A DNA stretch of 64,000 nt, taken from the NCBI RefSeq assembly GCF_044324875.1, contig NZ_CP172185.1; one strand, 5' to 3'. Positions 29,904-60,351 of this stretch are shown piece by piece. Under the pieces are notes generated by a model. That model was not told the origin of the DNA. It saw only the letters and a program-made list of their open reading frames with translations, and searched no databases. How positions within the stretch are numbered: the stretch's first letter is position 1; each line of letters starts with the position of its first letter. A program made the position numbers and the translations under genes. The DNA comes from Escherichia coli (GTDB taxonomy: Bacteria; Pseudomonadota; Gammaproteobacteria; Enterobacterales; Enterobacteriaceae).

Positions 29904-29910
29904 ATTACCT

Positions 29911-33400: not shown

Positions 33401-33932
33401 CTTTCAGTTTTCCCGCCATCTCCTGAGCGCGGAAATATTGCTGGCGTGCCTGCGTGACGCGTGCCAGAGTCTGCCGTTCACGTTCCAGCTGTTCGTTGTA
33501 TTGCTGTGTTCGCCGTATGGCCTGTTGAATGGTGTTGTCACTGCCGGAAAGCGCAATACCGTGACGCCGCAGCTCACCACCCAGTTCGCGCATTCGCTGA
33601 ACTTCACGCGCACGGACCTCATTGAGACGCTCAAGTTTGAGGCTCAAATCGTTCATCAGCTTTTTCTGTTTGTCAGACAGCACGGTTCCGGCGCGCTGAA
33701 TTTGCTGAAGTGCGCTTAACTGGCGTTGTGCCCGGGCAATGCCGTTTCCGGCCTTGTTTGCAGCCTCGCGGGCGCGATCAAATGAACGGGCGTGGCGTTC
33801 CAGGTTTTTGATCGCACCCTGCGTTCTCTGTATGGAGTCGCCAAGCTGGCCCATCATGCGACGGGCGTTTTCGGTGGGACGGGTCAGCCTGTCAACAGCG
33901 CTGAAGGCGACCCGTATATCAAGCGTTTTCAT
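30411..33932 (-). CDS. T: Tail tape measure protein (gpT-like), 1173 aa from the ATG overlapping the E' stop, with Pro/Val-rich repetitive C-terminus
   Basis: Very long Ala/Gly/Leu-rich ORF following the E/E' chaperone pair; the ORF track start at 33968 is an over-extension. Confidence 0.85.
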   Translation of the reverse strand: MKTLDIRVAFSAVDRLTRPTENARRMMGQLGDSIQRTQGAIKNLERHARSFDRAREAANKAGNGIARAQRQLSALQQIQRAGTVLSDKQKKLMNDLSLKLERLNEVRAREVQRMRELGGELRRHGIALSGSDNTIQQAIRRTQQYNEQLERERQTLARVTQARQQYFRAQEMAGKLKAGGFTAVGTAAAGGYAAGRFLQPAVSFGKEMSRVQALTRIDKNSPQFKALREQALKLGSETQFTAGDAASGQAFLAMAGFTPQAIQAALPGVLNLATASGMDLGQTADISSNILTQFGLSADQMNRVGDTLAATFTRTNTDLRGLGETMKYTGPVAASLGLSLEQTAAMTGLLGSMGIRGSDAGTALRSSLSRLVNPPKAAAKALKQLGVETQDAYGNMRPMEDILYELYQATRKYGNAAKVSFFSDIAGQEAYVSLMSLVEQAGEKNLPRLTREIQAANGELEENARIMADNLDGDLKSLNSAWEGLRIRVADLVDGPLRSVTQSFTRVIAKVTALAQAHPELTKQLLIAGGALLAAVAATGALSLATGVLLGPLAKLRLGFSLLTGTSGLGRALPLLTQLRGVLGGSMSGIGGWRVLFAGLDTGAGRLAVRLRGVRGLLGTLRGGLLAAFTSPGGALLSLGRGIGMLALRLSGLPALWGMVSGAVGALGGALGFLLSPVGLVVAALVGAAVLIWRHWDQLKAVVGGYLSGLWQGLTPLREAVAPLGPIFEYVGQTIGRVWQWFVDLFAPVSTTKDELDKCTEAGRTFGQKVGEFISNLVTGPVTLLVDSLTRVLEKLGLIPSAVERARKKAEELKQKELLNEKAAMLLADVNVINPPQNDKDKKPPVPAPAATAPLTGENTGTMRRLNKIVDNTGGLLDEAKQAKKRTGPGDIIFKNLPEALAVRGEWKEERFNRAASLLPGSVSEPPVRLPQVPSVSVPSLPPLPAPPPVSVSPLISTTANVSPVVKPVVSVNNVPVIPPVVRPVLSGNITPVVSPVIKPVMTHDVMPTFSPLMTPVMAAISRPVLEAVRELMLVIDAGIVRAPQPVSSVMAESVAPVISPAIKPVMAGDVIPTLSPVIKPVVSGNIAPVMTPVVTATSRPVVEAVRQPISPASPRPRQSDPAPWGLTGELHIHLHDVHTQNPRELAKMVGDAVRAEMERRIRQTVGSFRDRD

Positions 33933-34445
33933 GCTCTGCGTTCCCGCTGCGAAGGGCCGCCCGCTCACGCCAGGCGACCACCTCGCCGGGATCCATCAGG
34001 AAGATTTCAGCGGGAGACCAGTTGAAAATAACGGCGATATCCGCCACAAAGTCTTCAATATGCTCAAAGGGCACGACGGTTATCAGCCTGCCGTCGCCGC
34101 CACGCTCTTCCCGCCAGAGTCCTGACCGGCCAAAAAATTAACCGCCACCCCGCACAGCTGAATAAAATCAGCGGACCCCATGCGCTTAAGCATAACCTCG
34201 TCCAGTCGCGGCGAAGTGACGCGCGGGAGTAACTCAAACATCGCGTCCGTTTTCATGTTCAGCACGTCAAGCAGTGACAGCCCGCGCAGTGAACCGGCCT
34301 GCTGTACAGCAGGCGTGATTTCCACATACGTGATTTTTTTGTTACCGAGCACAAGGGGTGTTTTCAGTGTCACGCCGCGCTCACTGGTCACGTCAGCCAC
34401 ATCAGCACCGTCAGTAACAGGGGCAACAACCGGATTTTCTTTCAT
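33919..34445 (-). CDS. Tail assembly chaperone frameshift product E+E' (programmed -1 frameshift at 34131..34137)
   Basis: Manual translation in the -1 frame after T_TTT_TTG gives an extended product ending at TGA 33919..33921, overlapping the tape measure start. Confidence 0.7.
34083..34445 (-). CDS. E: Tail assembly chaperone, P2 gpE family (zero-frame product)
   Basis: 120-aa ORF upstream of the tape measure gene; carries the slippery heptamer near its 3' end. Confidence 0.8.
   Translation of the reverse strand: MKENPVVAPVTDGADVADVTSERGVTLKTPLVLGNKKITYVEITPAVQQAGSLRGLSLLDVLNMKTDAMFELLPRVTSPRLDEVMLKRMGSADFIQLCGVAVNFLAGQDSGGKSVAATAG
34131..34137 (-). promoter_or_regulatory. Programmed -1 ribosomal frameshift heptamer T TTT TTG (E to E')
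   Basis: Heptamer in frame as (AA)T TTT TTG in the last part of E; conserved mechanism in tail chaperone genes. Confidence 0.7.
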
Positions 34446-34494
34446 GAATAAAACCTCAAATCAGGGGCGACGCCACGCGCCGCCGTGGAAAACA

Positions 34495-35013
34495 TTAACC
34501 ACCAAGACCAATCGCCGAGCGCACGCGGTCCGGGAAGACGCTTTTGCCGTCCTTGCGTTCGATGTGGTTCAGTAAATCAATCTCCAGCACCGGACGGTCG
34601 TTAATGCTGAGTTTGTAGTAGGTACTTTTGACCGCATAGGTGTGAGACGTGACCTCACCCTGTTTGGCCTCCCCGGTATCAATTTCCGTCACGCGACCGC
34701 GAAGCTCAATCTCGTACAGGTCACTCTGTTCTTCATCGTTGTAGTACTCACCGACAAAGCGCAGCAGCGTACCGTCAATCGTGCCGCCGTACTTGAGGAA
34801 CAGTTCGCGGGTCGGCCCGCCCATGGTGAAACTCGCATCCAGCGCGCCGTCATCCAGGCCAAGGTCGATATTTACTGCACCGGCCATACCACCACCGCGA
34901 TAGGCTTCCGTTTTACGGGTCAGTTTGGGGGGCGTGAAGCCGGTCACCCTGCCAATCTGGTTCACCCCGTCAGTAAACAGCGTGAACACCCTGAGATTTT
35001 TTGGTACGGCCAT
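34495..35013 (-). CDS. FII: Tail tube protein, P2 gpFII family
   Basis: 172 aa between the sheath and E genes. Confidence 0.8.
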   Translation of the reverse strand: MAVPKNLRVFTLFTDGVNQIGRVTGFTPPKLTRKTEAYRGGGMAGAVNIDLGLDDGALDASFTMGGPTRELFLKYGGTIDGTLLRFVGEYYNDEEQSDLYEIELRGRVTEIDTGEAKQGEVTSHTYAVKSTYYKLSINDRPVLEIDLLNHIERKDGKSVFPDRVRSAIGLGG

Positions 35014-36296
35014 TAAGCACCTCCAAGCGTCGCAAATGCAGGACCAAAGAATTCATCAGTAAACGTCTGGTAAAGTTCCATATCCTCAAGCGGCGGAACG
35101 GGCGTGTACTTGTAGCGGATACGCACGCGTCCCTGACGAAGTTCCGTGGTGCTGTTATCCACCACGTCATACCAGCACTCCGCACCAACGAGACGTCCTG
35201 ACGTAACCAGCGCATCCAGTTTTGCGCGAATTGCGCTTAACACGTCTTTCACATTAGCAGGGGTCAGCGGGGCATCAATCGTTTCAAACTGCGCTTCCGC
35301 AACAGAATCAGCCAGCACCTGAGCGGTTCGCGTGTACACCTCAAAGATATACGCCTTCGTTTCCGGCGTACGGTTGCCCCAGAAGCGGAAACCGTTACGG
35401 CGAATGATGGTGGTGATTTCCTTGTTGTTGAGATTGTTGGCATCGCTGTCTTCGGACTGAAGGGACCAGAACACCCGGCTGGAAATACCCAGCACATTTC
35501 TTACCGGCACGTTGGACAGCGATTTATGCCAGCCCTGTTCGTGGTCAATACGTGCACGTAAACCGCAGGCGTACGCCGCAGCCGGGAAGACCTCATTAGC
35601 GCCGGATTTCGGGTTATAGGCGATGAAGTCAGGCCAGAGCAGCATAAGTTCGCGCTCGTTAAATCTGGCGCGGTAGCTGATTGCATCAGCGGGCTTCTTG
35701 CAGTTGTGACAGCCCGCGTAGACAAATGCGCGAAGTTTTTCTGCAATTACACACAGGGATTTTGTGACAGCTTCAGTATCCAGTCCGGGAGCTGCGATGA
35801 TGCGCGGACGGTAACCGATGGCATCATCCTGTTCAGCTATCAGAAGTGCATACATACCGGTATAATTACCGTCGCCATCCGTGCCACCAATGACATACTG
35901 GTCCTGCGTTTTGTGTGGGTATACAGGATGTGCATCTTCAGACTCATCAATACCAAAAAATGCCCTGTCTTCAGGATCCAGATGACCGAATGATGTAACT
36001 CCTGTATCCGGGGCGCCCTGAGAACTGGCATCAGGAACGCGCACCACAATCACCTTCGTGCTCACCTGGTCGGCGACAGCCTTAAGCGATTTGTAAAGCG
36101 TCCCCTTTGTGCCGGCCTTACCCAGCACATCACTGACGCGGGTCAGCAGTGTGGGTTTGTTCAGCGGGAACAGAGTTTCATCCGCGTCATCTGCCGTAGC
36201 CACAATACCAATAACACTGGAATCCACATCATTAATGGCGGTGGCAAGGCCGGTACTTTCCCTTACGCGCGCACCATGAAAGCGTGTTTCACTCAT
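35013..36296 (-). CDS. FI: Tail sheath protein, P2 gpFI family (427 aa from ATG 36296)
   Basis: Motifs collinear with P2 FI as recalled (LNKP, KGTLY, EQGWHK, GFRFWGNRT, NYTRTAQV, YTPVPPLE); the ORF track start at 36443 is an over-extension. Confidence 0.88.
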   Translation of the reverse strand: MSETRFHGARVRESTGLATAINDVDSSVIGIVATADDADETLFPLNKPTLLTRVSDVLGKAGTKGTLYKSLKAVADQVSTKVIVVRVPDASSQGAPDTGVTSFGHLDPEDRAFFGIDESEDAHPVYPHKTQDQYVIGGTDGDGNYTGMYALLIAEQDDAIGYRPRIIAAPGLDTEAVTKSLCVIAEKLRAFVYAGCHNCKKPADAISYRARFNERELMLLWPDFIAYNPKSGANEVFPAAAYACGLRARIDHEQGWHKSLSNVPVRNVLGISSRVFWSLQSEDSDANNLNNKEITTIIRRNGFRFWGNRTPETKAYIFEVYTRTAQVLADSVAEAQFETIDAPLTPANVKDVLSAIRAKLDALVTSGRLVGAECWYDVVDNSTTELRQGRVRIRYKYTPVPPLEDMELYQTFTDEFFGPAFATLGGA

Positions 36297-36369
36297 ATGT
36301 TTCACCCTTGTCTGGCTGGTTGATTTTGCGTAATCATTACCCACACACGCGGTAATCTCACCCCTTTGA

Positions 36370-36393
36370 TGTTGTCTCCTGACAGCGACAACA
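36370..36393. promoter_or_regulatory. Perfect dyad TGTTGTC-N10-GACAACA containing TGT-N12-ACA, candidate Ogr-dependent late promoter element shared by divergent FI and D
   Basis: Read directly; fits the TGT-N12-ACA dyad characteristic of P2 late promoters; lies in the 160-bp FI/D divergent region. Confidence 0.5.
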
Positions 36394-36457
36394 AAACAGC
36401 CATTCAACGCCGCTACGGTGCATGAAACCATTACAGAACGCACCAGGAGAGAACACC

Positions 36458-37549
36458 ATGAAAGAGCTGTCAGTTACCGTTCCGTCACCGGATATCGACA
36501 TCACCATCAACAACAACACACTGGCAAACCTCACAGAGCGACTCATGACGCTGACCCTGACGGATAACCGGGCCTTTGAGGCAGACCGCGTCACCCTCAC
36601 CCTTGACGATACGGACGGGCAGTTACAGTTGCCACCACGTGGCGCACGCCTGAGAGTGATGATTGGCTGGCGCGGGGAGGCGCTGGTTAACAAGGGTGTC
36701 TACATCGTTGATGAAGTGACGTGGGAAGGCCCGCCGGACAAACTGACCATCACCGCCAGCAGCGCCGATTTTCGCGAAGAGTTCAACGTGAAGCGTGAAG
36801 TCTCCTGGCACGACGTGACGGTAAAACAGGTTGTGTCAGCCATCGCGCACCGCTACGGCCTGAAAGCACAGATAAGCGATATCCTCATGGATATCGAAAT
36901 TGACCACGCAGACCAGACCGAAGAGAGTGATATATCCTTCCTGACCCGCATGGCTGAAATGCTGGGTGCGATTGCCACCGTAAAAAACGGCAGCCTGTTA
37001 TTCATTCTGCCGGGTGGCGGAACCGGGCCGGACGGAAAAGCCCTGCCTTCGTTCGCCATTACCCGCAGCAGCGGCGACAGTCACCGCTTTCGCATTGCTG
37101 ACCGTGATGCGTATACGGGGGTCCGGGCGCACTGGCTCGATCTGAAGTTCGGGCAAAAGAAAAAAGTGAACGTGAAGCGACGCAGGGAAGCCGGGAAACA
37201 GAAACAGGAGAAGAGCAGCAGCCGGGAAGGTGATTACATGGAAGGCGCGGAAGGTAACGTCTACGTTCTGCGCAGGACTTACCAGAATGAAGAAACCGCA
37301 CGACGTGCAGCAGCTGCAAAGTGGCAGGAACTACAGCGGGGCGCGGCATCATTCTCCATCACGCTGGCGCGCGGTCGTGCCGACCTGTACCCTGAAATGC
37401 ACGGCAGGGTAACAGGTTTTAAAAGCGAGGTGGACAATCAGGACTGGATTATTGCCAGGGTGGAGCACAGCATAGATGAAAGCGGCTTCACCACACAACT
37501 GGAGCTGGAAGCGAAAATCCCCGAATGGATAGCAGATTCAGGCGGATAA
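36458..37549 (+). CDS. D: Tail protein D (gpD-like), 363 aa from ATG 36458
   Basis: Size and position before ogr as P2 D; AGGAGA ribosome binding site upstream of ATG 36458. Confidence 0.8.
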   Translation: MKELSVTVPSPDIDITINNNTLANLTERLMTLTLTDNRAFEADRVTLTLDDTDGQLQLPPRGARLRVMIGWRGEALVNKGVYIVDEVTWEGPPDKLTITASSADFREEFNVKREVSWHDVTVKQVVSAIAHRYGLKAQISDILMDIEIDHADQTEESDISFLTRMAEMLGAIATVKNGSLLFILPGGGTGPDGKALPSFAITRSSGDSHRFRIADRDAYTGVRAHWLDLKFGQKKKVNVKRRREAGKQKQEKSSSREGDYMEGAEGNVYVLRRTYQNEETARRAAAAKWQELQRGAASFSITLARGRADLYPEMHGRVTGFKSEVDNQDWIIARVEHSIDESGFTTQLELEAKIPEWIADSGG

Positions 37550-37592
37550 AATTAAAATGAGCCATCTCCACTCAGCCAGATAAGGAGAAGCC

Positions 37593-37844
37593 ATGTTCCG
37601 TTGTCCCCTGTGCGGTGCATCCGCACGTATCCGCACCAGTCGCAATGAAAATGATTCAGGCACAGTTCGCCTGAAGTACTACCAGTGCAATAACCTCGAA
37701 TGCGGGATCGGCTTTACCACACTGGAGGGTTTTAACAAATTCACATCAAAACGCGCCCCGTCGCCGCAGGGTACAGAGCGGATACCGTGGGAAGATTTTC
37801 CGGGATCTCACAGGGGGAATGCTCAGATGAATCTTGATATTTAA
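37593..37844 (+). CDS. ogr: Zinc-finger late gene activator, Ogr/Delta family
   Basis: 83 aa with CPLC...C-x4-C zinc-finger spacing and N-terminus MFRCPLCG resembling P2 Ogr (MFHCPLC...). Confidence 0.88.
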   Translation: MFRCPLCGASARIRTSRNENDSGTVRLKYYQCNNLECGIGFTTLEGFNKFTSKRAPSPQGTERIPWEDFPGSHRGNAQMNLDI

Positions 37845-37962
37845 GAACAATAATCAGGTTGAGAGGACATCATAAGGCAAGTAGATTAACGGCAGATACT
37901 TTCCCGCAACCACGGGCAAGTATTTAATTATCCATGATGAAATATGACCTAAATTGTTTTTT

Positions 37963-37988
37963 GCCCGCCGGAAAGCGGGCATTTTTTT
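37963..37988 (+). terminator. Intrinsic terminator 1 of the ogr-attR array (gcccgc-cggaaa-gcgggc plus T8)
   Basis: Hairpin and T-run read directly. Confidence 0.75.
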
Positions 37989-38202
37989 ATTCTTTTGTGG
38001 TTATGGGGTCATCAGGAACCACGTGCAGATTATATTTTTGTTTTTTTGGCGTTCCTCCGGCAGCAACGAGTTCATCAATAAGACACTGACACGCCTGAAC
38101 ATCCCGGGCATGTCTTAGTTTCACCTTTATTGATTTAACCTTATCCTCACCGGAGGAGAAATGCAGTTCAATCTCAATATCGTTTCTTCGGAACAATCTC
38201 AT
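37987..38202 (-). CDS. Hypothetical small protein (71 aa) between ogr and attR
   Basis: ORF on the minus strand; no recognisable motif. Confidence 0.4.
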   Translation of the reverse strand: MRLFRRNDIEIELHFSSGEDKVKSIKVKLRHARDVQACQCLIDELVAAGGTPKKQKYNLHVVPDDPITTKE

Positions 38203-38429
38203 ACGCCCCCCTGAATATATCAGAAATGCTAGTATCGAAAAATGAGAAAACAGTTAGACAGGAGAAACATATTAACACAAATCATTTATACCTATAGATG
38301 AAATTATAATTTCATTCATGAATATGATAGATAACTATATTGTGAACAAAATGAAAAATGGCTAAATTAAAAATGGGCATGGAGGAATGCCTCGTAATCA
38401 GTAATACATGATCCATACTTCCTTGTTTT

Positions 38430-38455
38430 GCCCGCCGGAAAGCGGGCATTTTTTT
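38430..38455 (+). terminator. Intrinsic terminator 2 of the array (identical hairpin gcccgc-cggaaa-gcgggc plus T8)
   Basis: Identical stem-loop to terminator 1. Confidence 0.75.
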
Positions 38456-38631
38456 GGCGGTTACCATCGCCTCACCTTCCTGGTTCACACAAAGCAACCC
38501 TGATTTTCCATGAAAACTTCAGGGTTGAGCCAAAAGCACAAAGACAGTAGATTAACCAAGGGTACCCGCCACCTGCCAACAGGAACGGTATCCAGTACGT
38601 ATTAATGACTGACAATTCACATTGCTGTTTT

Positions 38632-38657
38632 GCCCGCCAGAAGGTGGGCATTTTTTT
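38632..38657 (+). terminator. Intrinsic terminator 3 of the array
   Basis: gcccgcc-agaa-ggtgggc hairpin plus T7. Confidence 0.7.
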
Positions 38658-38834
38658 GGCAGTTATCATGGACGCACCTTCATGACACATATTAAGCAGA
38701 CCTGATTTTTCCATGAAAAATTCATGGTTGAGACAAAAGCACAAAAACAGTAGATTAACCACGGGTGCCTGCCACCTGACAACAGGAAGGGGTGTCCATT
38801 ATCCATGATATACAAACGAAAAGTCTTGTCTTTT

Positions 38835-38861
38835 GCCCGCCGTTGCGCGGGCTTTTTTTTT
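38835..38861 (+). terminator. Intrinsic terminator 4 of the array
   Basis: gcccgc-cgttgc-gcgggc hairpin plus T9. Confidence 0.7.
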
Positions 38862-38890
38862 GCCACCCTCACCAGTGAGGGTACCATCAT

Positions 38891-39178
38891 TCAGAGGCGC
38901 GTAAGCCACCCGGCGTTAACATCCTGCCCGTCAACCCTGACCGCAGAGTCTGAACGGCAGGCACCGGAAGCAGTACCAAAAACACCTCTGACAAGTTCCG
39001 CCACCTTCCCGATATCATCAGGCGCCACATTCCTCACCTCGACAGTGATCCGTGGCGTACCATCATCGTTAACAAGCGTGGCTTTAAGGCTGGTACGACG
39101 GGCAAATAACATCAACACCCCCTCCCTTCGGTTCGTTGCACTGGCAGCACGATACCACCAGGAAAAAGAAAAGCCCAC
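38891..39178 (-). CDS. Hypothetical protein (up to 95 aa) adjacent to attR
   Basis: ORF on minus strand; several possible starts; no motif recognised. Confidence 0.35.
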   Translation of the reverse strand: MGFSFSWWYRAASATNRREGVLMLFARRTSLKATLVNDDGTPRITVEVRNVAPDDIGKVAELVRGVFGTASGACRSDSAVRVDGQDVNAGWLTRL

Positions 39179-39203
39179 AACGTCAGGATTGCGGGCTTTT
39201 TTT
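39172..39203 (+). terminator. Intrinsic terminator 5, last phage element before the copA promoter
   Basis: gcccacaa...ttgcgggc hairpin followed by ttttttt. Confidence 0.6.
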
Positions 39204-39268
39204 CTTCAAAAATGGACACTACGTGGACACTGATTAAATAATCCTTTCTTAATCAGACTGTTAAAATG

Positions 39269-39288
39269 CTTGACCTTCCCCTTGCTGG
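39269..39288. repeat. attR core (direct repeat copy 2)
   Basis: Identical to 4256..4275. Confidence 0.8.
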
Positions 39289-42273: not shown

Positions 42274-43068
42274 ATGGATCTGTTGTACCGGGTAAAAACG
42301 CTTTGGGCCGCGCTGCGCGGTAATCATTACACCTGGCCTGCTATCGATATCTCTCTTCCCGGCAATCGCCATTTTCATCTGATTGGCAGTATTCATATGG
42401 GTAGCCACGATATGGCTCCCCTGCCCACCCGTTTGCTCAAAAAGCTCAAAAACGCCGATGCGCTGATCGTCGAGGCGGATGTTTCCACCAGCGATACGCC
42501 TTTTGCTAATTTGCCTGCCTGCGAGGCGCTGGAAGAGCGCATTAGCGAGGAGCAACTCCAAAATCTGCAGCACATTAGCCAGGAGATGGGCATTTCTACC
42601 TCACTCTTTTCTACCCAACCGCTGTGGCAAATCGCGATGGTTCTTCAGGCGACGCAGGCACAAAAACTGGGGCTGCGGGCAGAATACGGTATCGATTACC
42701 AGCTATTGCAGGCGGCGAAGCAACAACATAAACCCGTGATTGAACTGGAAGGGGCTGAAAACCAGATTGCCATGTTGCTCCAGCTCCCTGACAAAGGACT
42801 GGCGCTGCTGGACGATACGCTGACCCACTGGCACACCAATGCACGGTTGCTGCAACAAATGATGAGCTGGTGGCTGAATGCGCCGCCGCAAAATAATGAA
42901 ATAACGCTGCGTAATACGTTCAGTCAATCGCTGTACGATGTGCTGATGCATCAGCGAAATCTCGCCTGGCGGGACAAATTATGCGCCATGCCGCCGGGGC
43001 GCTATGTGGTCGCAGTCGGTGCACTACACCTGTATGGAGAAGGGAATTTGCCGCAGATGTTGCGCTAA
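42274..43068 (+). CDS. ybaP: TraB-family protein YbaP
   Basis: 264 aa, synteny between copA and ybaK. Confidence 0.85.
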   Translation: MDLLYRVKTLWAALRGNHYTWPAIDISLPGNRHFHLIGSIHMGSHDMAPLPTRLLKKLKNADALIVEADVSTSDTPFANLPACEALEERISEEQLQNLQHISQEMGISTSLFSTQPLWQIAMVLQATQAQKLGLRAEYGIDYQLLQAAKQQHKPVIELEGAENQIAMLLQLPDKGLALLDDTLTHWHTNARLLQQMMSWWLNAPPQNNEITLRNTFSQSLYDVLMHQRNLAWRDKLCAMPPGRYVVAVGALHLYGEGNLPQMLR

Positions 43069-43256
43069 AAAAATGGCCAATATCGCTATTGGCCCGTCAA
43101 AGAGGAATTTCATATTTTTATTATTATGCCGTCACTTTAAGCGACGGTGTAACTCGATTGTCGCTCAATCTCACCATCCTGCCAATACTCTTAGGCAAGA
43201 TGACTCTTTTTTTTGGACCGCCATCAGGCGTATGCTTGCTTCGTTTTTTTGTTTAA

Positions 43257-48792: not shown

Positions 48793-48826
48793 ACGGTGGT
48801 TGCCGGATGTAAAATATGAAAAATAT

Positions 48827-48910
48827 GTAGGCATGATAAGACGCGCCAGCGTCGCATCAGGCATTGAGAGCAAAATGCCAGATGCGGCGTGAACGCCTTA
48901 TCTGGCCTAC
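48827..48910. repeat. BIME / REP elements (two inverted REP units)
   Basis: gtaggcatgataagacgcgccagcgtcgcatcaggc and gccagatgcggcgtgaacgccttatctggcctac match REP consensus types. Confidence 0.8.
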
Positions 48911-48924
48911 GAACCGACGATAAC

Positions 48925-50229
48925 TTAACGATCCCAGTAAGACTCTTCCAGGCTGTCTTCACGCTCCGGCAAGCCGCGCGTTAAACGAGGTGAATGCTGG
49001 TTCAGTACCTGATAGCTCACACGGTTAGCATATTTACACACCTGCGCTAACGATGAATAAGTTAACCAGGTGAATTTATGTTTGCTGGAGTTTGGTACGT
49101 TGCTACGGTGGTAGCTGTTGGCGGTAATATCATGCAGCAACGCTGCCAATGCGCCATCCCCTGCTCCGTTAGTGTTCATGATTTTTTCCGGCCCGCCCAT
49201 GTACGGCGCAATGTGCGAATAGACACGCAGCGGATTCTGGCAATCCTTGTGGCGCATGGCGCGGCTAAACTCATACTGGTTAAATTCCGCTATAGCGCCC
49301 GGCAGCAGTGGATGCTGGGTTTTACGTTTCGCTTCGTCTTCAGTAAAGCCCGCCATATACAAGCCGATTGGCCCGGCGGTGCACAGCACCAGATCAACCC
49401 AGTCCAGCGCCTTGTCAGATGCCAACAACGGATCGCTTTCTCCGGTCAACGCTTCGGCCTCATCTTCGTTCATCGCAAGGATAGAGACGTGATCTTTGAG
49501 GAATTGCTGCCACCACTGCGGATTCTCGGCAATGACAAACTTGGTGCCCAGCGTCAGCACCACCGGTACGTTATATTTCTTCGCGTACTCAATGGCTTTC
49601 ATGGTTGCTTCCGGCATGGGTTCACCCGGCTTGCAACGCACCAGATAAGAAGTGAGAACCAGTGCCGAGGCTCCGGCAATCACATCTTCCGGAATACTTT
49701 CAGCCCGCAGCTGGTTCATGTGGCCAGGGCTGATAGCAAAGGTACGTTCCCCGGACTCGCCAATCAGCGTAAAGCAACGACCTATCGGGCCATCCACGCC
49801 TTGTAGATAGTTAAGATCGGTACGGCTGGAGGTGTTACACAGGTAACGATAGGCATAGCTGCCAATTTCAATATTGCTGCACATGACGCCCAGCAGCACC
49901 TAACGGTCGTCCGCGAGCACCGAGTAGTTGTGCATGGTGTTACCAATAGTGCCACCCGCAAACTGATGGGTAATCAGGTTTTTCTGTTTTAGTTCCTGAT
50001 AAAGCGCTTCGGCTACGTCATCCTCAATCACCAGTGAATGCCCGGCGCTTAATCCATAACGCTCAATGAATTCATCATCCACTTTCGCTTCAATATCGAC
50101 CAGCGTTTGATCGATACCCACTACCCAGGCGGCGCTGGTTTCGTTTTCTGGCTGGAACTGCTGAAGCAGCGGATCGCGTGCATTTACAGGGAAGTAATGT
50201 TTGGATTTACGTTTACCGGGAAATTTCAT
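48925..50229 (-). pseudogene. gsk: Inosine-guanosine kinase gene interrupted by an in-frame TAG at codon 110 (minus-strand stop = plus 49900..49902)
   Basis: Two adjacent same-frame ORFs (109 aa + 324 aa) separated by a single TAG; combined length 434 codons equals full-length Gsk. Confidence 0.8.
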
Positions 50230-50380
50230 GGTTGTTTTTACGGGTGGTTAACTGAGCGGCGAATGTTAACACAATCTGACGGGAGCGCGCGAGACGCAGC
50301 CAGTTTCAATATCAGCAGGCGGGATCGCATTTTCATGGCAGTGGTTCCTTACAATGACGTAATTTGAAAGGAGTTTTTGC

Positions 50381-51340
50381 ATGAAGCCGGAAAACCAATT
50401 ACCCGTTCTGGACCTTATTTCTGCTGAAATGAAGACCGTTGTGAATACTCTTCAGCCGGATTTACCGCCCTGGCCCGCTACGGGAACGATTGCTGAGCAA
50501 CGACTGTATTACGCGCTTGAGCGCCGATTCTGGAATGCGGGCGCTCCAGAAATGGCAACCAGAGCTTACATGGTTCCAACAAAATATGGGCAGGTGGAAA
50601 CACGTCTCTTTTGTCCGCAGCCAGATAGTCCGGCGACGCTATTTTATTTGCATGGCGGCGGTTTTATTCTCGGCAATCTCGATACCCACGATCGCATCAT
50701 GCGCCTGCTGGCAAGCTACAGCCAATGTACGGTGATTGGCATTGATTACACCCTTTCACCTGAAGCGCGTTTTCCGCAAGCAATAGAGGAAATTGTGGCT
50801 GCCTGTTGTTATTTCCACCAGCAGGCGGAAGATTATCAAATCAATATGTCCCGCATTGGCTTTGCCGGTGATTCCGCAGGTGCCATGTTGGCGCTCGCCA
50901 GTGCGTTGTGGTTGCGTGATAAACAGATCGATTGCGGTAAAGTTGCGGGCGTTTTGCTGTGGTATGGGCTTTACGGATTACGGGATTCCGTGACTCGTCG
51001 TCTGTTGGGCGGTGTCTGGGATGGCTTAACGCAACGGGATTTACAGATGTATGAAGAGGCGTATTTAAGCAACGACGCGGACCGCGAGTCGCCGTATTAC
51101 TGCCTGTTTAATAATGATCTCACTCGCGAAGTCCCGCCCTGTTTTATTGCCGGGGCGGAGTTCGATCCGCTGCTGGATGACAGCCGTCTGCTTTACCAGA
51201 CGTTAGCGGCGCATCAGCAGCCCTGTGAGTTCAAACTCTACCCAGGCACGCTGCACGCCTTTTTGCATTATTCACGGATGATGAAAACCGCCGACGAGGC
51301 TCTTCGCGACGGCGCTCAATTCTTTACCGCTCAGCTTTAG
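50381..51340 (+). CDS. aes: Acetyl esterase
   Basis: 319 aa with HGGG and GDSAG esterase motifs. Confidence 0.95.
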
Positions 51341-52299
51341 CGATACGCGGCAACAAGATTAGCCATCATTTCAATATGTTCCGGCGTGGCATTAAGCGCC
51401 GGAATATATTCGTATTTTTTCCCGCCCGCACCGAGGAAGACCTCACGGTTTTGCTCGGCAATCTCTTCCAGCGTCTCCAGACAATCCGCAGCAAAGCCCG
51501 GGCACATCACCTGAATATGACCTACGCCTTTTTCTCCGAGCATTTTCAGCGTTTCGTCGGTATAAGGCATCAGCCAGGGTTCCCGCCCAAAGCGCGACTG
51601 AAAGGTCATCATCACTTTTTCCGGTGCCATCCCCAGTGCGGAAGCCAGTTCGCGAGTCGTTGTGCGGCAACGCTGTGGGTAATCATCACCTTCATCTGCA
51701 TAACGTTGAGGAATGCCGTGATAAGAGAGCAGCAGCAGATCCGGCTCGCCATGTTTGGCAAAAGAAGCGCGTACGCTGTTCGCCAGTGCATTAATGTAAT
51801 CGTGGTTATCGGCGTAATCACGAATAAACGATATCCCCGGAATGCTACGTTTGCGCGCCAGAATGCGTGCCAGTTCATCCCATACCGCACCGACCGTTGA
51901 ACAGGAGTATTGCGGATAAAGCGGCAGCACCACAATATGATCTACATGCTCTGCCAGGAGTTCATCTACGGCGCTTTCCAGTGATGGCGAGCCGTAGCTC
52001 ATTCCCAGCGCTACGGGCGTCTCCGGTAAACGTTGTGCCAGCGCCTGCTGTTGCTGGCGGCTGTAAACCATCAGCGGCGAGCCACCTTCCATCCAGACAG
52101 AGGCATACAGCTTCGCCACACGCGGCGAGCGCAGCGGCAAAATCACGCCGCGCAGCAACGGCCACCATAACAACCGTGAGGTATCAACCACGCGTCTGTC
52201 GCTTAAAAATTGTTTCAGATAGCGTTTTACCGCTTCAGGTGTGGGGGCATCGGGCGTACCCAGGTTTGCCAGCAGGATACCGGTTTTAGTCTGACGCAT
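51337..52299 (-). CDS. hemH: Ferrochelatase
   Basis: 320 aa, synteny between aes and adk. Confidence 0.95.
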
Positions 52300-52430
52300 T
52301 ACCGCCTCTTATCGATTCAACTTGTTGATAATTGTAGCGGAAAAGTGAAGAAGAAGAACTAATTGCTGTGAGAGGTATTGCCTGAGGAGGATGAGCAGAC
52401 CTGCCCGAAAGCAGATCTGCTGCGGCTTGA

Positions 52431-53147
<717 letters not shown>

Positions 53148-53255
53148 TCAAGAAAGGCACCTGGGGCTGAAACGGTTAATGGCGAGATAATTTGCGGAAA
53201 GTGCAGATAATGAAAAGAAAAATGCCGGATGACACGAAGGTCATCCGGCATGACA

Positions 53256-55130
53256 TCAGGAAACCAGCAGCTGGTTCATACGACGAATAAACAGGTTCGG
53301 ATCTTCCAGCGTGCCGCGTTCTGCCAGCAGCGCCTGATCCAGCAGCAGTTCTACCCACTCGCTGAACTTCGCTTCATCTTCAGTATCTGCCGCACGTTTC
53401 ACCAGTACGTGATCCGGGTTCAGTTCGAAGATGTATTTCACTTCTGGCACTTTCTGGCCCGCCGCAGCGAACAGTTTCGCCATCTGAGTGCTCATTTCGT
53501 CCGCGTCGGTAGAGACAATCGCTGGCGTATCGGTCAGACGGTGAGTCAGACGGACATCTTTCACGCGCTCGCCGAGCAGGGCTTTCACACGGTCGATGAA
53601 CGGAGTCAGGGCTTTCTCCGCTTCTTTCGCGCTCTCATCAACTTCGTCAGCCAGTTTTTCCAGCGACTCGTCAACTTTAGACACAGACTGGAACGGTTTA
53701 CCGTCGAACTCAGTCAGATAGTTCATCATCCACTCATCGATGCGGTCGGAAAGCAGCAGAACTTCGATGCCTTTCTTACGCAGCAGTTCCAGGTGCGGGC
53801 TGCTCTTCGCTGCCGCATAGCTGTCTGCGGTGATGTAGTAAATTTTCTCCTGCCCTTCTTTCATGCGGGAAACGTAGTCTTCCAGAGACACGGTCTGCGC
53901 AGAAGAATCGGTATGAGTAGACGCAAAACGCAGCAGTTTGGCGATCGCTTCCTGGTTAGCGAAATCTTCCGCCGGACCTTCTTTCAGTACCAGGCCAAAC
54001 TGTTGCCAGAAGGTCTGGTATTTTTCCGCGTCGTCTTTCGCCAGTTTTTCCAGCATTTGCAGCACACGCTTGGTCAGCGCATTGCGCAGGTTACGCGTTA
54101 CCGTGCTGTCCTGGAGGATTTCACGGGAAACGTTCAGCGGCAGATCGCTGGAGTCAATCAGACCACGCACGAAGCGCAGATAGTTCGGCATGAACTGTTC
54201 TGCGTCGTCCATGATGAACACACGCTGGACGTACAGTTTCAGGCCATGTTTATGATCGCGGTTCCACATATCCCACGGAGCCTGGGACGGAATGTACAGC
54301 AGGCTGGTGTACTCCTGCTTACCTTCAACACGGTTGTGGCTCCAGGTCAGCGGATCGTTAAAGTCGTGGGCGATGTGTTTGTAGAACTCTTTGTACTCTT
54401 CATCGGTGATTTCCGACTTGTTACGGGTCCACAGCGCCTGCGCTTTGTTGATTTTCTCCCAGGAGATAACGGTTTCGCCGTCTTTCTCTTCGCGTTTTTC
54501 GATCTCTACCGGCAGCGCGATATGGTCGGAATATTTGCTGATGATGGAACGCACACGCCAGTCATCGAGGAACTCGTCTTCGCCTTCACGCAGATGCAGG
54601 GTGATTTCAGTACCACGATCTTCTTTAGTGATGTCGGCAACGGTGTATTCACCTTCGCCAGCCGATTCCCAGAAGACGCCGTTTTCTGGTTTTTCGCCTG
54701 CCGCGCGAGTACGCACGGTCACTTTGTCAGCCACGATAAAAGCAGAGTAGAAACCAACACCAAACTGACCGATCAGCTGGCTGTCTTTCGCCTGGTCAGA
54801 ACCCAGGGATTCGAGGAATGATTTGGTGCCGGATTTAGCGATAGTCCCCAGATGGTCAATCACTTCGTCGCGGGTCATCCCCACGCCGTTATCGGAGATG
54901 GTCAGCGTGCGCTTGTCTTTATCGAAAGAGACACGAACGCGCAGTTCGCCATCACCTTCGTACAGGTCCGGGTTAGAGAGCGCGCGGAAACGCAGCTTGT
55001 CCGCCGCATCGGAGGCGTTAGAGATAAGCTCACGCAGGAAGATTTCTTTATTGGAATAGAGAGAATGGATCATCAGGTGCAGAAGCTGTTTCACTTCTGA
55101 CTGAAAACCACGAGTTTCTTGTCCTTTCAT
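53256..55130 (-). CDS. htpG: Hsp90-family chaperone HtpG
   Basis: 624 aa; translation matches E. coli HtpG as recalled. Confidence 0.97.
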
Positions 55131-55181
55131 GTAGGTCTACCTCAATAATGCCATTTTAAGGTTAAAAACAGGATGTGGGAG

Positions 55182-55210
55182 AGATGGGGACAAGGGAGAA
55201 TAATTTCAAG
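55182..55210 (-). promoter_or_regulatory. Sigma32 heat-shock promoter of htpG (CTTGAAA-N14-CCCCATCT on minus strand)
   Basis: Minus-strand cttgaaattattctcccttgtccccatct about 50 nt upstream of the htpG ATG; matches the sigma32 consensus. Confidence 0.8.
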
Positions 55211-55239
55211 CGAGAGCAGGTGATCCTGCTCTCGTTTGC

Positions 55240-55844
55240 TTAAAAACGAATCTTATGACGCCCGGCAAGGGAGTGTGACAGCGTGGTGCCATCGACCATT
55301 TCCAGCTCGCCGCCAACCGGTACGCCATGAGCGATTCGGCTGGCTTCCACGTCATATTGCGCGCAAAGCTCGGCAATGTAGTTAGCGGTAGCTTCACCTT
55401 CAACCGTGGGGTTGGTGGCGAGGATCACTTCAGTGATTTTTTCCTCTGCCAGACGCTGTTCCAGACGATCAAGCCCGATATCATCCGGACCGATGCCGTC
55501 CAGCGGTGACAGGTGTCCCATCAACACAAAATAACGGCCTGAAAACTGCCCCGTCTGCTCAATGGCGTAGATGTCCGCCGGACTCTCCACCACGCAGATT
55601 TGACCGTTTTCCTGACGACGCGGATTCGAACAGATGTTACAGACTTCCTGTTCGGTGAAGGTGCGGCAATCGGCGCAGTGGCCGATTTCCGACATCGCCC
55701 GGGTGAGCGCCTGCGCCAGACGCATCCCGCCGCTACGATCGCGCTGAAGCAGCGTGAACGCCATACGCTGCGCCGACTTCGGGCCAACGCCCGGCAGACA
55801 GCGCAGTGCTTCCATAAGCTGTGTTAACAGCGGGCTGGTTTGCA

Positions 55845-55845
<1 letters not shown>
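55240..55845 (-). CDS. recR: Recombination protein RecR
   Basis: 201 aa with C4 zinc finger (CADCRTF...CNIC) and Toprim region. Confidence 0.97.
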
Positions 55846-56189
<344 letters not shown>

Positions 56190-56226
56190 TCACGTTAAGG
56201 ATGACGAACGTAAGCTGTGCTTACGA

Positions 56227-58158
56227 TCAAATGGGGCGGATACTTTCTTCATCCAGCTCCGCATCGAAGAATCGACGCAGGGTCTGAATATTATTATCCG
56301 CAATAATGGACTCGCGCGCCTGCGCAAGTTTTTCTTCGTATATCGCCTGACGCCATTCCAGCGGCGTACGCACCGCGGGATTATCATCTTCAACGATAGT
56401 CAGTTCAACCGTTGAACCTTTTAACGTGCTCAACGCTTCAGCCAGTTTTTGCTGTGCGCCGCGGTTGTTCAAATGCCGCTGAGAGGAGCGCAAATGCAGA
56501 CATACTGCGTTGTCGCTCTCCTCTTTCCAGGCATTTAACGCCACCTGTTCGACCAGTTTTGGTAGCGAAAGTTGACTCACCTGAGCCGCCCACGGGTCGC
56601 GCTCAATGGCTTCTGCCGCCAGCTTCGCCGCCAGTTCCGGCGTTTTTTCATGTTCCAGCGCTTTTTTTAGCGCCTTCGGCGTGGCGACCACTTCTTTTTG
56701 CTGCATCACTGGAGTGGTAGCCTTCCAGCGATACGCTTCTTTTTTGGCTGGCGCTTTTTCCAGCGCCGATGGCACCGGACGCGCCTGAACGCGATCGGTG
56801 ACCGAAGCCAGTCTTTCCAGCGCAGCGTTATTCACCGGCCGCGCGCGGGTAGCGGCTGCCGGTTCACTCTTTTTTGCTTTGGTTGCTCCCTGCACGCGCT
56901 GCAACTGCTGGCGCGCCGCCAGCACCTGGCTGGTGGTTTCCGGGAGCGGTACAGTCGGTGCCTGCTGCGGCGCTGATTGCGGTTGTGGCGGCACCTGGGT
57001 TGGCGTCATTACTGCCGTTGGCGCAACGAGCGCAAAGGACTGGCGTGGCACTTCTGGCTCAGGCAGAGGCATACGCGGATGGAACGCCAGCGCGCGCAGC
57101 AGCGTCATCTCAACACCCATACGGCGGTCTGGCGCATACGGTAATTCTTTGCGACCAATCAACAGCGTCTGATAGTAAAGCTGAATATCCGTCGGCGGTA
57201 TGGTGCGCGCCAGTTCACGCATCCGCAGCTCAATGGCGGCCATGTCGTTGCCAAGAGCAGCAGGCGAAAGTTGTACCATCGCAATACGATGCAACAGACC
57301 GAGCATTTCCACCAGCAACGCTTCCCACTCGATACCACGGGCAGCAGCTTCATTAATTAGCGCCATTACGCGCTCGCCGTTGGCCTCGACCATCGCTTCA
57401 ACCAGCGATAACGCCTGATCGTCGTCAAGCGTACCCAGCATCGCACTGACCGCCTGGGTTGAAACCTGGCCGTCACCGCTGGCAATCGCCTGGTCGGTCA
57501 GACTTAAGGCATCTCGCAGGCTGCCTTCAGCGGCGCGTGCCAACAATTGCAGCGCCCGCGGCTCGTGAGCGATATGTTCTTCGTTGAGGATGTGCTCAAG
57601 CTGATGGCGAATTTGCTCGACATCCAGCGCCTTGAGATGAAATTGCAGACAGCGTGACAAAATCGTCACCGGCAATTTCTGCGGATCGGTCGTCGCCAGC
57701 AAAAACTTAACGTGCTCTGGCGGCTCTTCAAGGGTTTTTAACAGTGCGTTAAAGCTGTGACGCGACAGCATATGCACTTCGTCGATGAGATAAACTTTGA
57801 AACGACCACGCGCCGGAGCGTACTGGACGTTATCCAGCAGGTCGCGAGTGTCTTCAACTTTAGTGCGCGAGGCGGCGTCGATTTCAATCAGATCGACAAA
57901 GCGCCCCTGCTCGATTTCACGACAATTATCGCACACGCCGCACGGCGTCGCGGTAATGCCGGTTTCGCAGTTTAGCCCCTTCGCCAGCAGTCGGGCGATA
58001 GAGGTTTTTCCGACGCCACGGGTACCGGAAAAAAGATAAGCATGATGAATACGCCCTAACGACAAGCCGTTCGCCAGTGCGGTCAGCACATGTTCCTGGC
58101 CGACGACGTCAGCAAAGGTTTGTGGGCGCCATTTTCGGGCTAAGACCTGATAACTCAT
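56227..58158 (-). CDS. dnaX: DNA polymerase III tau subunit (gamma produced by frameshifting)
   Basis: 643 aa with AAA+ motifs; contains the A AAA AAG slippery site. Confidence 0.97.
   Translation of the reverse strand: MSYQVLARKWRPQTFADVVGQEHVLTALANGLSLGRIHHAYLFSGTRGVGKTSIARLLAKGLNCETGITATPCGVCDNCREIEQGRFVDLIEIDAASRTKVEDTRDLLDNVQYAPARGRFKVYLIDEVHMLSRHSFNALLKTLEEPPEHVKFLLATTDPQKLPVTILSRCLQFHLKALDVEQIRHQLEHILNEEHIAHEPRALQLLARAAEGSLRDALSLTDQAIASGDGQVSTQAVSAMLGTLDDDQALSLVEAMVEANGERVMALINEAAARGIEWEALLVEMLGLLHRIAMVQLSPAALGNDMAAIELRMRELARTIPPTDIQLYYQTLLIGRKELPYAPDRRMGVEMTLLRALAFHPRMPLPEPEVPRQSFALVAPTAVMTPTQVPPQPQSAPQQAPTVPLPETTSQVLAARQQLQRVQGATKAKKSEPAAATRARPVNNAALERLASVTDRVQARPVPSALEKAPAKKEAYRWKATTPVMQQKEVVATPKALKKALEHEKTPELAAKLAAEAIERDPWAAQVSQLSLPKLVEQVALNAWKEESDNAVCLHLRSSQRHLNNRGAQQKLAEALSTLKGSTVELTIVEDDNPAVRTPLEWRQAIYEEKLAQARESIIADNNIQTLRRFFDAELDEESIRPI
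56869..56875 (-). promoter_or_regulatory. dnaX programmed -1 frameshift heptamer A AAA AAG (tau/gamma)
   Basis: Plus-strand ctttttt at 56869..56875 = minus aaaaaag within ...GCA AAA AAG AGU GAA..., encoding the ...AKKSE... region of tau. Confidence 0.85.
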
Positions 58159-58286
58159 TGGCAGGCTCTGAAACGCTGGAAGGTGGATTCACGAAGGGGT
58201 AATGCTAACACAGCCCCGTCAGAACGGCGAGGCTGAATGCACATCTTGTGCTGTCCGTAGCGTGGGCAGCACAAGACTGGCGATAA

Positions 58287-58838
58287 TTAATGGCCCGGGA
58301 ACGGGACAAGGCTGTAGCTGGTAATGCCCTGTTTTTCGAGACGCTGTTCGCCGCCGAGATCGAACAGGTTGATAATGAACGCAGCGTCAGCCACTTCACC
58401 ACCCAGACGACGGATCAGTTTAACGGTCGCTTCGATAGTGCCGCCGGTTGCCAGCAGATCGTCCACCACCAGAACTTTGTCGCCCGGTTTGATGGCATCA
58501 ACGTGGATTTCCAGCTGATCGGTGCCGTATTCCAGATCGTAAGTTTCACTGATGGTCTCACGCGGCAGTTTGCCCGGTTTACGGACCGGTACAAAGCCAA
58601 CGCCCAGACCCAGAGCTACCGGAGCGCCAAACAAGAAGCCACGCGCTTCGGTGCCGACAACTTTGGTAATGCCCGCATTTTTGTAACGCTCAACCAGCAA
58701 GTCGATGCTGAGAGCGTAAGCTTTCGGGTCTTCCAGTAAGCTGGTGACATCACGGAAAAGAATGCCGGGTTTTGGGTAGTCCTGAATGCTTTTGATGCTA
58801 TTTTTGAGATACTCAAGCTGCTGTGCAGTCGCGGTCAT
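58287..58838 (-). CDS. apt: Adenine phosphoribosyltransferase (183 aa from [11 protein letters not shown])
   Basis: PRTase motif [13 protein letters not shown]; ORF track start 58892 is an over-extension. Confidence 0.95.
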
Positions 58839-58990
58839 AAGTGTATGCCTGCTTGTTACGGTGGTACTCACGGCGCGTTTTAAACGTATCAAAAGTAACA
58901 GTTGTTTAACCTTTGACCGCCTGCGCCTGTGCTCGAAAACGCCAGAATGTACTGGCTGTACGCAATAATTGCAACTGCGATTGTTGTGCT

Positions 58991-59368
58991 TCAGTGCTTT
59001 TCTTGCTTTTCATCAATCACCGGAATTCGCCACATATAAAAAAGCAAACAGGCGAGAATTACCAGCAACATGATGCGCACCCATGGCATCTGGACGAACC
59101 ACAGAGAAATTGCAAACGTGAGCAAAATAAGCAAAATCGCCCGCGGTTTGACGCCGCGCGGCATCGCATGATGTTTCTGCCAGAAACGTAGATAGCTGCC
59201 AAACCATGAGCGGTACAGCAACCAGGCGTGAAAGCGCGGGGAAGAACGGGCAAAGCACCAGGCCGCCAGCAGGATAAACGGCGTCGTCGGTAATACCGGT
59301 AATACCACGCCCAGCGTACCCAGCACTACCGCCAGCCAGCCAATGATGATTAAAATGATTCGTTGCAT
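58991..59368 (-). CDS. ybaN: Inner membrane protein YbaN (DUF454 family)
   Basis: 125-aa membrane protein, synteny between apt and priC. Confidence 0.85.
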
Positions 59369-59437
59369 ATTGAGTGTTGTCAGCTTACAGAGTGGCTACC
59401 TTAGCATAACAATTATCATTTTCATTGAGGTCTTATC

Positions 59438-59965
59438 GTGAAAACCGCCCTGCTGCTGGAAAAACTGGAAGGACAGCTCGCCACGCTGCGCCAGCGTTGT
59501 GCCCCGGTAGCGCAATTTGCCACGCTAAGTGCGCGTTTTGACAGGCACCTTTTTCAAACCCGTGCGACAACACTACAGGCTTGTCTCGATGAGACGGGCG
59601 ATAATCTGGCTGCGCTTCGTCATGCCGTTGAGCAACAGCAACTGCCGCAAGTCGCCTGGCTGGCAGAACATCTGGCGGCGCAACTGGAAGCCATCGCGCG
59701 TGAAGCCACAGCCTGGTCGCTACGCGAGTGGGACAGCGCGCCACCAAAAATTGCCCGCTGGCAGCGTAAACGTATTCAGCATCAGGATTTTGAGCGGCGG
59801 CTACGTGAGATGGTAACCGAACGTCGAGCCCGCCTGGCGCGGGTGACCGATCTCGTGGAACAGCAAACGCTGCATCGTGAAGTGGAAGCCTATGAAGCGC
59901 GCCTGGCACGCTGCCGCCATGCGCTGGAAAAAATCGAAAACAGGTTAGCGCGTTTAACCCGCTAG
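59438..59965 (+). CDS. priC: Primosomal replication protein N'' (PriC)
   Basis: 175 aa, synteny. Confidence 0.9.
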
Positions 59966-59978
59966 CAATGGAGAGAGT

Positions 59979-60140
59979 ATGTCACTGGAAAATGCCCCTG
60001 ACGATGTCAAACTGGCTGTCGATTTGATTGTGCTGCTGGAAGAAAATCAGATCCCAGCGCGCACCGTGCTGCGCGCGCTGGATATTGTAAAACGCGATTA
60101 TGAAAAGAAATTAACGCGCGATGATGAGGCGGAAAAGTGA
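59979..60140 (+). CDS. ybaM: Small protein YbaM (53 aa; not in ORF track because under 60 aa)
   Basis: Manual translation [53 protein letters not shown] from ATG 59979 to TGA 60138..60140. Confidence 0.8.
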
Positions 60141-60193
60141 AAAATAAATGGGGCCGCTAAATGTCCCCTAAGATTGCGGGCAAACGCAAAACT

Positions 60194-60291
60194 GCCTGAT
60201 GCGCTACGCTTATCAGGCCTACACCGCTCCTGCAATATATTGAATTCTTGCGGTTTCGTAGGCCGGATAAGGCGGTCACGCCGCATCCGGC
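60194..60291. repeat. BIME / REP elements (two inverted REP units)
   Basis: gcctgatgcgctacgcttatcaggcctac and gtaggccggataaggcggtcacgccgcatccggc. Confidence 0.8.
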
Positions 60292-60351
60292 ATGAACAAC
60301 GCGCACTTTGTCAGTAATCTCGGGGCAACTAAATGTCGCCCCCTTTGGTTA

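What the first reader, a model, noticed from the sequence alone, without database searches (positions are those of the whole stretch)
56869..56875. dnaX tau/gamma frameshift heptamer present and intact
A AAA AAG site read directly in the expected codon context; included as an internal control that the host region is conventional.
Basis: established knowledge. Interest (0 to 1): 0.1.

Follow-up and report, generated by a model that had tools for sequence, protein, structure and literature searches.

The report
Ordinary E. coli dnaX frameshift site
This is the textbook ribosomal frameshift signal inside the E. coli dnaX gene, which lets one gene make both the long (tau) and short (gamma) subunits of the DNA replication clamp loader; it is intact and ordinary.

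Summary
It sits in a 643-aa ORF (56227..58158, minus) that is dnaX (NCBIfam NF005942, 980 bits). The phase is A|AAA|AAG, covering Lys429-Lys430.

All parts of the known cassette are present:
- an AGGGAG Shine-Dalgarno-like element 10 nt upstream;
- an 11-bp G+C-rich stem-loop starting 5 nt downstream;
- a -1-frame GAG-UGA that would end a 431-aa gamma.

Rfam RF00382 (DnaX frameshifting element) matches its full length at 96.8 bits, against a gathering score of 35. The 65-nt cassette is identical to that of K-12. It is also identical in 5372 of the 5423 complete E. coli genomes that hold it. RefSeq annotates the element at this spot, and K-12 carries the joined gamma CDS.

The heptamer alone is not rare: 19 copies in the window against about 11 expected. 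The composite signal is unique.

Low interest. In passing, a rare P2-family prophage sits in the copA promoter and carries its own classical E/E+E' frameshift site.

The parts
56227..58158 (-). dnaX ORF; the 0 frame encodes tau, 643 aa
   Evidence: ORF list. NCBIfam NF005942 'DNA polymerase III subunit gamma/tau', 980 bits against a cut-off of 613, covering residues 1-643. Pfam domains: DNA_pol3_delta2, ATPase lid, gamma domain III (232-358), tau domain IV (417-498), tau domain V (500-640). 97.98% nt identity to K-12 dnaX with 2 aa changes, P377L and M578T.
56886..56891 (-). Internal Shine-Dalgarno-like element AGGGAG, 10 nt 5' of the heptamer
   Evidence: Read directly. Composite pattern unique in the window. 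Covered by Rfam RF00382 positions 5-10. Its stimulatory role is described in PMC5389563.
56869..56875 (-). Slippery heptamer A AAA AAG (Lys429-Lys430 in the 0 frame)
56864..56866 (-). UGA stop in the -1 frame, reached after one Glu codon (GAG 56869..56867); gamma ends ...KKE, 431 aa
   Evidence: Translation of the -1 frame. Matches the length of the joined gamma CDS in K-12: 1295 nt plus one re-read base = 432 codons.
56834..56863 (-). Stimulatory stem-loop: 11 bp (6 + 5 with bulges), 5-nt loop, starting 5 nt after the heptamer
   Evidence: RNA fold -19.1 kcal/mol, z = -2.33, 3 of 200 shuffles fold as well. Same pairing as the Rfam RF00382 consensus structure.
56830..56894 (-). Whole frameshift cassette as modelled by Rfam RF00382
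   Evidence: 96.8 bits against a gathering score of 35, model positions 1-65 of 65. Identical over all 65 nt in 5372 of 5423 E. coli genomes with a match. Annotated 'DnaX frameshifting element' in RefSeq.

Best explanation
This is the canonical programmed -1 ribosomal frameshift site of Escherichia coli dnaX. Ribosomes translating dnaX place the two tRNA-Lys on AAA-AAG in the P and A sites. The downstream stem-loop sits at the mRNA entrance and impedes EF-G-driven translocation. The upstream AGGGAG pairs with the 3' end of 16S rRNA. A large fraction of ribosomes then slip one base back, to AAA-AAA, read GAG (Glu) and stop at UGA. That yields gamma: 431 aa, domains I-III plus 13 residues of domain IV and one Glu. 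Ribosomes that do not slip make full-length tau (643 aa), which keeps the DnaB-binding domain IV and the alpha-binding domain V. Shown here: every sequence element, its phase and spacing, the predicted product sizes, the identity of the gene and the identity of the cassette to K-12. Inferred from published work on the identical K-12 sequence: that frameshifting really occurs, and at high efficiency.
For: Heptamer phase and the gamma/tau product lengths come. Rfam RF00382 matches its full length at 96.8 bits. There are no differences from K-12 within the cassette, nor anywhere in CDS 1174..1439. K-12 is annotated with a joined gamma CDS, and RefSeq places a 'DnaX frameshifting element' feature at the homologous position of a strain with an identical dnaX region. 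The cassette is 100% identical in 5372 of 5423 complete E. coli genomes, although only 234 of 5424 are at least 99% identical to the window over the surrounding 2.2 kb. Literature: the three signals (A AAA AAG, SD, hairpin), efficiencies of roughly 50-80%, and loss of frameshifting on mutation (84% to 2% for the slippery site, 20% without the hairpin, 50% without the SD) are in PMC5389563. The single E. coli tRNA-Lys (mnm5s2U34) that reads both codons, and slippage during translocation, are in PMC6787027, which cites Blinkowa & Walker 1990 (PMC330589) and Tsuchihashi & Brown 1992.
Against: Nothing in the sequence argues against it. There are limits. No expression data exist for this strain. 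The hairpin's folding z-score alone is modest (-2.33), because the region is G+C-rich. The 266-nt stretch around the cassette without differences from K-12 is not significant on its own: my estimate is p about 0.2, given 39 differences in 1932 nt.
Confidence: 0.97

Rival explanations
1. The heptamer is just an incidental Lys-Lys codon pair with no recoding function.
For: AAAAAAG is common: 19 copies in the window and three inside dnaX itself.
Against: Only this copy is in the slippery phase. It has the SD-like element at 10 nt, the hairpin at 5 nt and an immediate -1 stop. The composite is unique and matches Rfam RF00382 at 96.8 bits. It is identical to the experimentally characterised K-12 sequence.
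Confidence: 0.01
2. Gamma arises here by transcriptional slippage on the A run, as reported for Thermus thermophilus dnaX (Larsen et al. 2000, from my own knowledge), rather than by ribosomal slippage.
For: There is a run of six A's, and the outcome (a shift to another frame) could look similar.
Against: Six A's is shorter than the runs that give efficient RNA polymerase slippage. The SD-like element and the hairpin are translational stimulators. In vitro translation of defined dnaX mRNA gives 70-84% frameshifting.
Confidence: 0.01
3. The short form is made mainly by proteolysis of tau, as with ClpXP processing in Caulobacter (from my own knowledge), and the heptamer is irrelevant.
For: None in this sequence.
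Against: E. coli gamma ends with a Glu encoded only in the -1 frame. The full cassette is conserved across E. coli.
Confidence: 0.01

Closest known systems
E. coli K-12 dnaX tau/gamma -1 programmed ribosomal frameshift cassette (Rfam RF00382; gene b0470)
   Same: The 65-nt cassette is identical in sequence. The codon position is the same (Lys429-Lys430), as are the SD-like AGGGAG, the 10-nt spacer, the hairpin, the -1 UGA and the products (tau 643 aa, gamma 431 aa).
   Different: Only background strain polymorphism elsewhere in the gene: 39 nt differences and 2 aa changes, P377L and M578T.
Phage P2 gpE / gpE+E' tail-chaperone -1 frameshift (T TTT TTG)
   Same: Also a -1 shift on an X XXY YYZ heptamer that yields two proteins with a common N-terminus. 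A copy is present in the same window at 34137..34131(-).
   Different: Here the frameshift lengthens the protein rather than truncating it. The heptamer differs, the efficiency is low, and neither an SD-like element nor the dnaX hairpin is involved.
Thermus thermophilus dnaX (gamma made by transcriptional slippage)
   Same: The same gene and the same outcome: a truncated gamma lacking the C-terminal tau domains.
   Different: That mechanism is RNA polymerase slippage on a longer A run (from my own knowledge). Here the signals are those of ribosomal frameshifting.

Membership tests
dnaX -1 PRF cassette (Rfam RF00382) | Slippery heptamer A AAA AAG in the X XXY YYZ phase of the 0 frame | tested here: met
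   the first A is at codon position 3; AAA is codon 429 and AAG is codon 430.
dnaX -1 PRF cassette (Rfam RF00382) | The host ORF is dnaX, with the site after domain III so that gamma lacks tau domains IV and V | tested here: met
   NCBIfam NF005942, 980 bits. Pfam domain III spans 232-358, domain IV 417-498 and domain V 500-640; the shift is at residue 430.
dnaX -1 PRF cassette (Rfam RF00382) | Upstream SD-like AGGGAG about 10 nt 5' of the heptamer | tested here: met
   56891..56886 with a 10-nt spacer.
dnaX -1 PRF cassette (Rfam RF00382) | Downstream stable stem-loop 5-6 nt 3' of the heptamer | tested here: met
   11 bp, -19.1 kcal/mol, with the same pairs as the Rfam consensus.
dnaX -1 PRF cassette (Rfam RF00382) | Immediate stop in the -1 frame (Glu then UGA), giving a 431-aa gamma | tested here: met
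   Agrees with the K-12 joined CDS.
dnaX -1 PRF cassette (Rfam RF00382) | Score above the curated covariance-model threshold | tested here: met
   96.8 bits against a gathering score of 35, full length.
dnaX -1 PRF cassette (Rfam RF00382) | Gamma is actually produced by ribosomal frameshifting at high efficiency | not testable with these tools
   Established for the identical K-12 sequence in the literature (PMC5389563, PMC6787027). Not measured for this strain.

The most novel reading that the evidence does not exclude
The strain-specific tau substitutions (P377L in the linker after domain III, M578T in domain V), or sequence context outside the 65-nt cassette, might alter the tau:gamma ratio or clamp-loader composition in this lineage. 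Nothing in the data suggests this; it simply cannot be excluded from sequence alone.
Probability: 0.02. Interest if true: 0.15.

Novelty: already known. Interest (0 to 1): 0.03.

Why it matters
It matters only as a control. The dnaX site is among the best characterised bacterial examples of -1 programmed frameshifting (described as such in PMC6787027). Finding it intact in another E. coli strain adds nothing new.

Tried and rejected
1. I tested whether the bare heptamer is significant. It is not: 19 observed against 11.3 expected, with two out-of-phase copies inside dnaX.

2. I tested whether any other AAAAAAG in the window is a candidate shift site. One further in-phase copy (21795..21789, minus) lies in a 221-aa ORF. 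That ORF has no PHROG match and is antisense to the gpL head-tail adaptor gene, so I rejected it as spurious.

3. I first assumed the window was colinear with strain MEW (NZ_CM192120.1), because the dnaX region is 100% identical to it. This was wrong: the ungapped comparison failed. BLAST showed a 35-kb insert, a missing IS621 and a 170-nt REP-type indel. The gene-context table is therefore valid only for window 48829..60124. I redid the analysis from ORFs.

4. I considered the 266-nt stretch around the cassette without differences from K-12 as evidence of selection. With 39 differences in 1932 nt, a gap that long is not unusual (my estimate p about 0.2). The population-level figure is the better evidence.

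5. A weak Rfam hit to STnc460 at 56287..56376 (26 bits against a gathering score of 70) is below threshold, and I ignored it.

Full report
**Observation**

The plus strand at 56869..56875 reads CTTTTTT. The heptamer AAAAAAG is on the minus strand, running from 56875 to 56869.

The minus strand carries a 643-aa ORF at 56227..58158. Counting from its ATG at 58158, the heptamer is in phase A|AAA|AAG, with AAA as codon 429 and AAG as codon 430. The local peptide is ...QGATKAKKSEPAAATRAR....

**Is it more than chance?**

The bare heptamer is not. It occurs 19 times in the window, against 11.3 +/- 3.0 in shuffles. It occurs three times on the coding strand of this ORF alone, and two of those copies are in the wrong phase.

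The composite is. AGGGAG-N8-12-AAAAAAG occurs once in the window and never in 100 shuffles. The 65-nt stretch 56894..56830 matches Rfam RF00382 ('DnaX ribosomal frameshifting element') over its full length at 96.8 bits. The gathering score is 35, and E = 2e-21 for the 2.4-kb search. It is also the top hit of a whole-window scan.

Of the 19 heptamers, only this one lies in the slippery phase of a credible gene. The other in-phase copy (21795..21789, minus) lies in an ORF with no family match, antisense to a prophage adaptor gene.

**Anatomy, on the minus strand**

- AGGGAG lies at 56891..56886.
- A 10-nt spacer (CAACCAAAGC) follows.
- A AAA AAG lies at 56875..56869.
- In the -1 frame come GAG (Glu, 56869..56867) and then UGA (56866..56864).
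- A stem-loop lies at 56863..56834. It has 11 bp in two segments, a 5-nt loop and a free energy of -19.1 kcal/mol. Its z-score is -2.33, and 3 of 200 shuffles fold as well. The pairing is that of the Rfam consensus.

A simulated -1 shift gives a 431-aa product ending ...ATKAKKE. The unshifted product is 643 aa.

**Gene identity and domain logic**

The ORF matches NCBIfam NF005942 (DNA polymerase III subunit gamma/tau) at 980 bits, against a cut-off of 613, end to end.

Pfam places the AAA+/delta2 module at residues 20-178, the lid at 182-230 and domain III at 232-358. It places tau domain IV (DnaB-binding) at 417-498 and tau domain V (alpha-binding) at 500-640. The shift at residue 430 therefore removes nearly all of domain IV and all of domain V. 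That is exactly the established difference between gamma and tau.

**Comparison with known sequences**

- The 2.2-kb region around dnaX is found once in 5424 of 5426 complete E. coli genomes. It is 100% identical to strain MEW.
- RefSeq annotates 'DnaX frameshifting element' at the homologous 65 nt, within the usual order priC-ybaN-apt-dnaX-ybaB-recR-htpG.
- K-12 MG1655 carries a joined gamma CDS of 1295 nt. With one base read twice, that is 432 codons, matching the 431-aa product predicted here.
- Against K-12 the gene has 39 nucleotide differences (97.98% identity) and two amino-acid changes (P377L, M578T). None falls in the cassette or anywhere in CDS 1174..1439.
- Across the population, the 65 nt are identical to the window in 5372 of 5423 genomes. 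Only 234 of 5424 genomes are at least 99% identical over the 2.2 kb. This fits selection on the RNA signals in addition to the protein. It is an inference, because the genomes are phylogenetically related and not independent.

**Mechanism**

The sequence elements are shown here; their function comes from the literature on the identical sequence. [quoted passage not shown]

Reported efficiency is roughly 50-80%. In one in vitro system it was 84%. It fell to 2% when the heptamer was changed to G AAG AAG, to 20% without the hairpin and to 50% without the SD (PMC5389563).

Both codons are read by the single E. coli tRNA-Lys, whose mnm5s2U34 pairs less well with G than with A. This favours re-pairing on AAA AAA, and slippage occurs during translocation (PMC6787027). 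That paper also cites the original reports, Blinkowa & Walker 1990 (PMC330589) and Tsuchihashi & Brown 1992. The pairing of AGGGAG with the 3' end of 16S rRNA (Larsen et al. 1994) is from my own knowledge.

**Rivals**

Three alternatives each receive about 1%. They are an incidental Lys-Lys pair, transcriptional slippage (as in Thermus thermophilus dnaX) and proteolytic generation of gamma. The complete and correctly spaced set of translational stimulators argues against all three, as does identity with the experimentally characterised sequence.

**Verdict**

The feature is already known and intact. Its use as a control for a conventional host region is justified. Interest is very low.

**Noticed in passing**

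The window is not colinear with strain MEW.

- *Prophage.* Window 4276..39268 is a roughly 35-kb P2-family prophage. It encodes an integrase, a gpA-type nickase, portal, terminase, capsid, gpL adaptor, tail fibre, tape measure and sheath. It is flanked by the 20-bp direct repeat CTTGACCTTCCCCTTGCTGG, at 4256..4275 and 39269..39288.
- *Insertion site.* From my own knowledge of PcopA, that repeat is the -35 hexamer plus most of the CueR operator dyad of the copA promoter. The promoter core is reconstituted at the right junction, just upstream of copA (39341).
- *Rarity.* The left junction is covered at 80% or more in only 9 of 5426 complete genomes. Three chicken isolates match it at 100%. The nearest deposited phages (P88-like) match only about 30% of the queried part of the prophage (window 4276..29200), at about 78% identity.
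- *A second frameshift site.* The prophage carries its own classical -1 site. T TTT TTG at 34137..34131 (minus) lies at codons 104-105 of the gpE-like ORF. Its -1 extension, ending at the stop at 33921..33919, matches Pfam Phage_P2_GpE at 46 bits.
- *Other RNA features.* Rfam also finds C4 antisense RNA and isrK in the prophage, sroB at 43067..43150 and naRNA4 at 48830..48907.

Noticed in passing
window 4256..39288: A roughly 35-kb P2-family (P88-like) prophage sits between glsA and copA. It is flanked by the 20-bp direct repeat CTTGACCTTCCCCTTGCTGG (4256..4275 and 39269..39288). From my own knowledge, that repeat is the -35 hexamer and most of the CueR operator of the copA promoter. The promoter core is rebuilt at the right junction, but everything upstream of -35 is now phage DNA. 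The same junction is present in only 9 of 5426 complete E. coli genomes. The nearest deposited phages match about 30% of the queried part (window 4276..29200) at about 78% identity. Whether copper regulation of copA is affected is unknown.
   Followed up: partly
window 33919..34445 (-), heptamer 34137..34131: A second programmed -1 frameshift site lies in the prophage tail-chaperone gene. T TTT TTG is in phase at codons 104-105 of the 120-aa gpE-like ORF. The -1 frame extends to a 175-aa E+E' product, and the extension matches Pfam PF06528 Phage_P2_GpE at 46 bits against a cut-off of 23.
   Followed up: yes
window 21723..22388 (-), heptamer 21795..21789: This is the only other AAAAAAG in the slippery phase of a long ORF. 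The 221-aa ORF has no PHROG match and is antisense to the gpL head-tail adaptor gene (21735..22307, +), so it is very probably not a gene.
   Followed up: yes
window 9343..9540 (+): Rfam finds isrK (64.7 bits) and C4 antisense RNA (82.8 bits) side by side in the early region of the prophage, a P1/P7-type immunity RNA module.
   Followed up: no
window 48809..48907: Strain MEW has an IS621 (IS110-family) insertion of about 1.3 kb exactly here, and the window does not. The adjacent sequence, 48830..48907(-), matches Rfam naRNA4/CssrE, a repeat-derived RNA. So the IS in MEW sits next to a repeat element.
   Followed up: no
window 60125..60333: Between rsmS and mscK the window holds 209 nt where strain MEW has 39 nt, about 170 nt more. 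The extra sequence is made of REP/BIME-type palindromic units, for example GCCTGATGCGCTACGCTTATCAGGCCTAC and GTAGGCCGGATAAGGCG...CGCCGCATCCGGCA.
   Followed up: no
window 43067..43150 (-): The sRNA sroB (ChiX/MicM) matches Rfam at 81.1 bits in its usual place next to ybaK/ushA.
   Followed up: no
window 56227..58158 (-): The dnaX region is 100% identical to strain MEW, an ivory gull isolate. The rest of the shared window is only about 98.9% identical to that strain. The prophage junction instead matches chicken isolates (Ch1, CM2, CS5L) at 100%. This suggests mosaic ancestry by recombination, or simply a different source strain.
   Followed up: no
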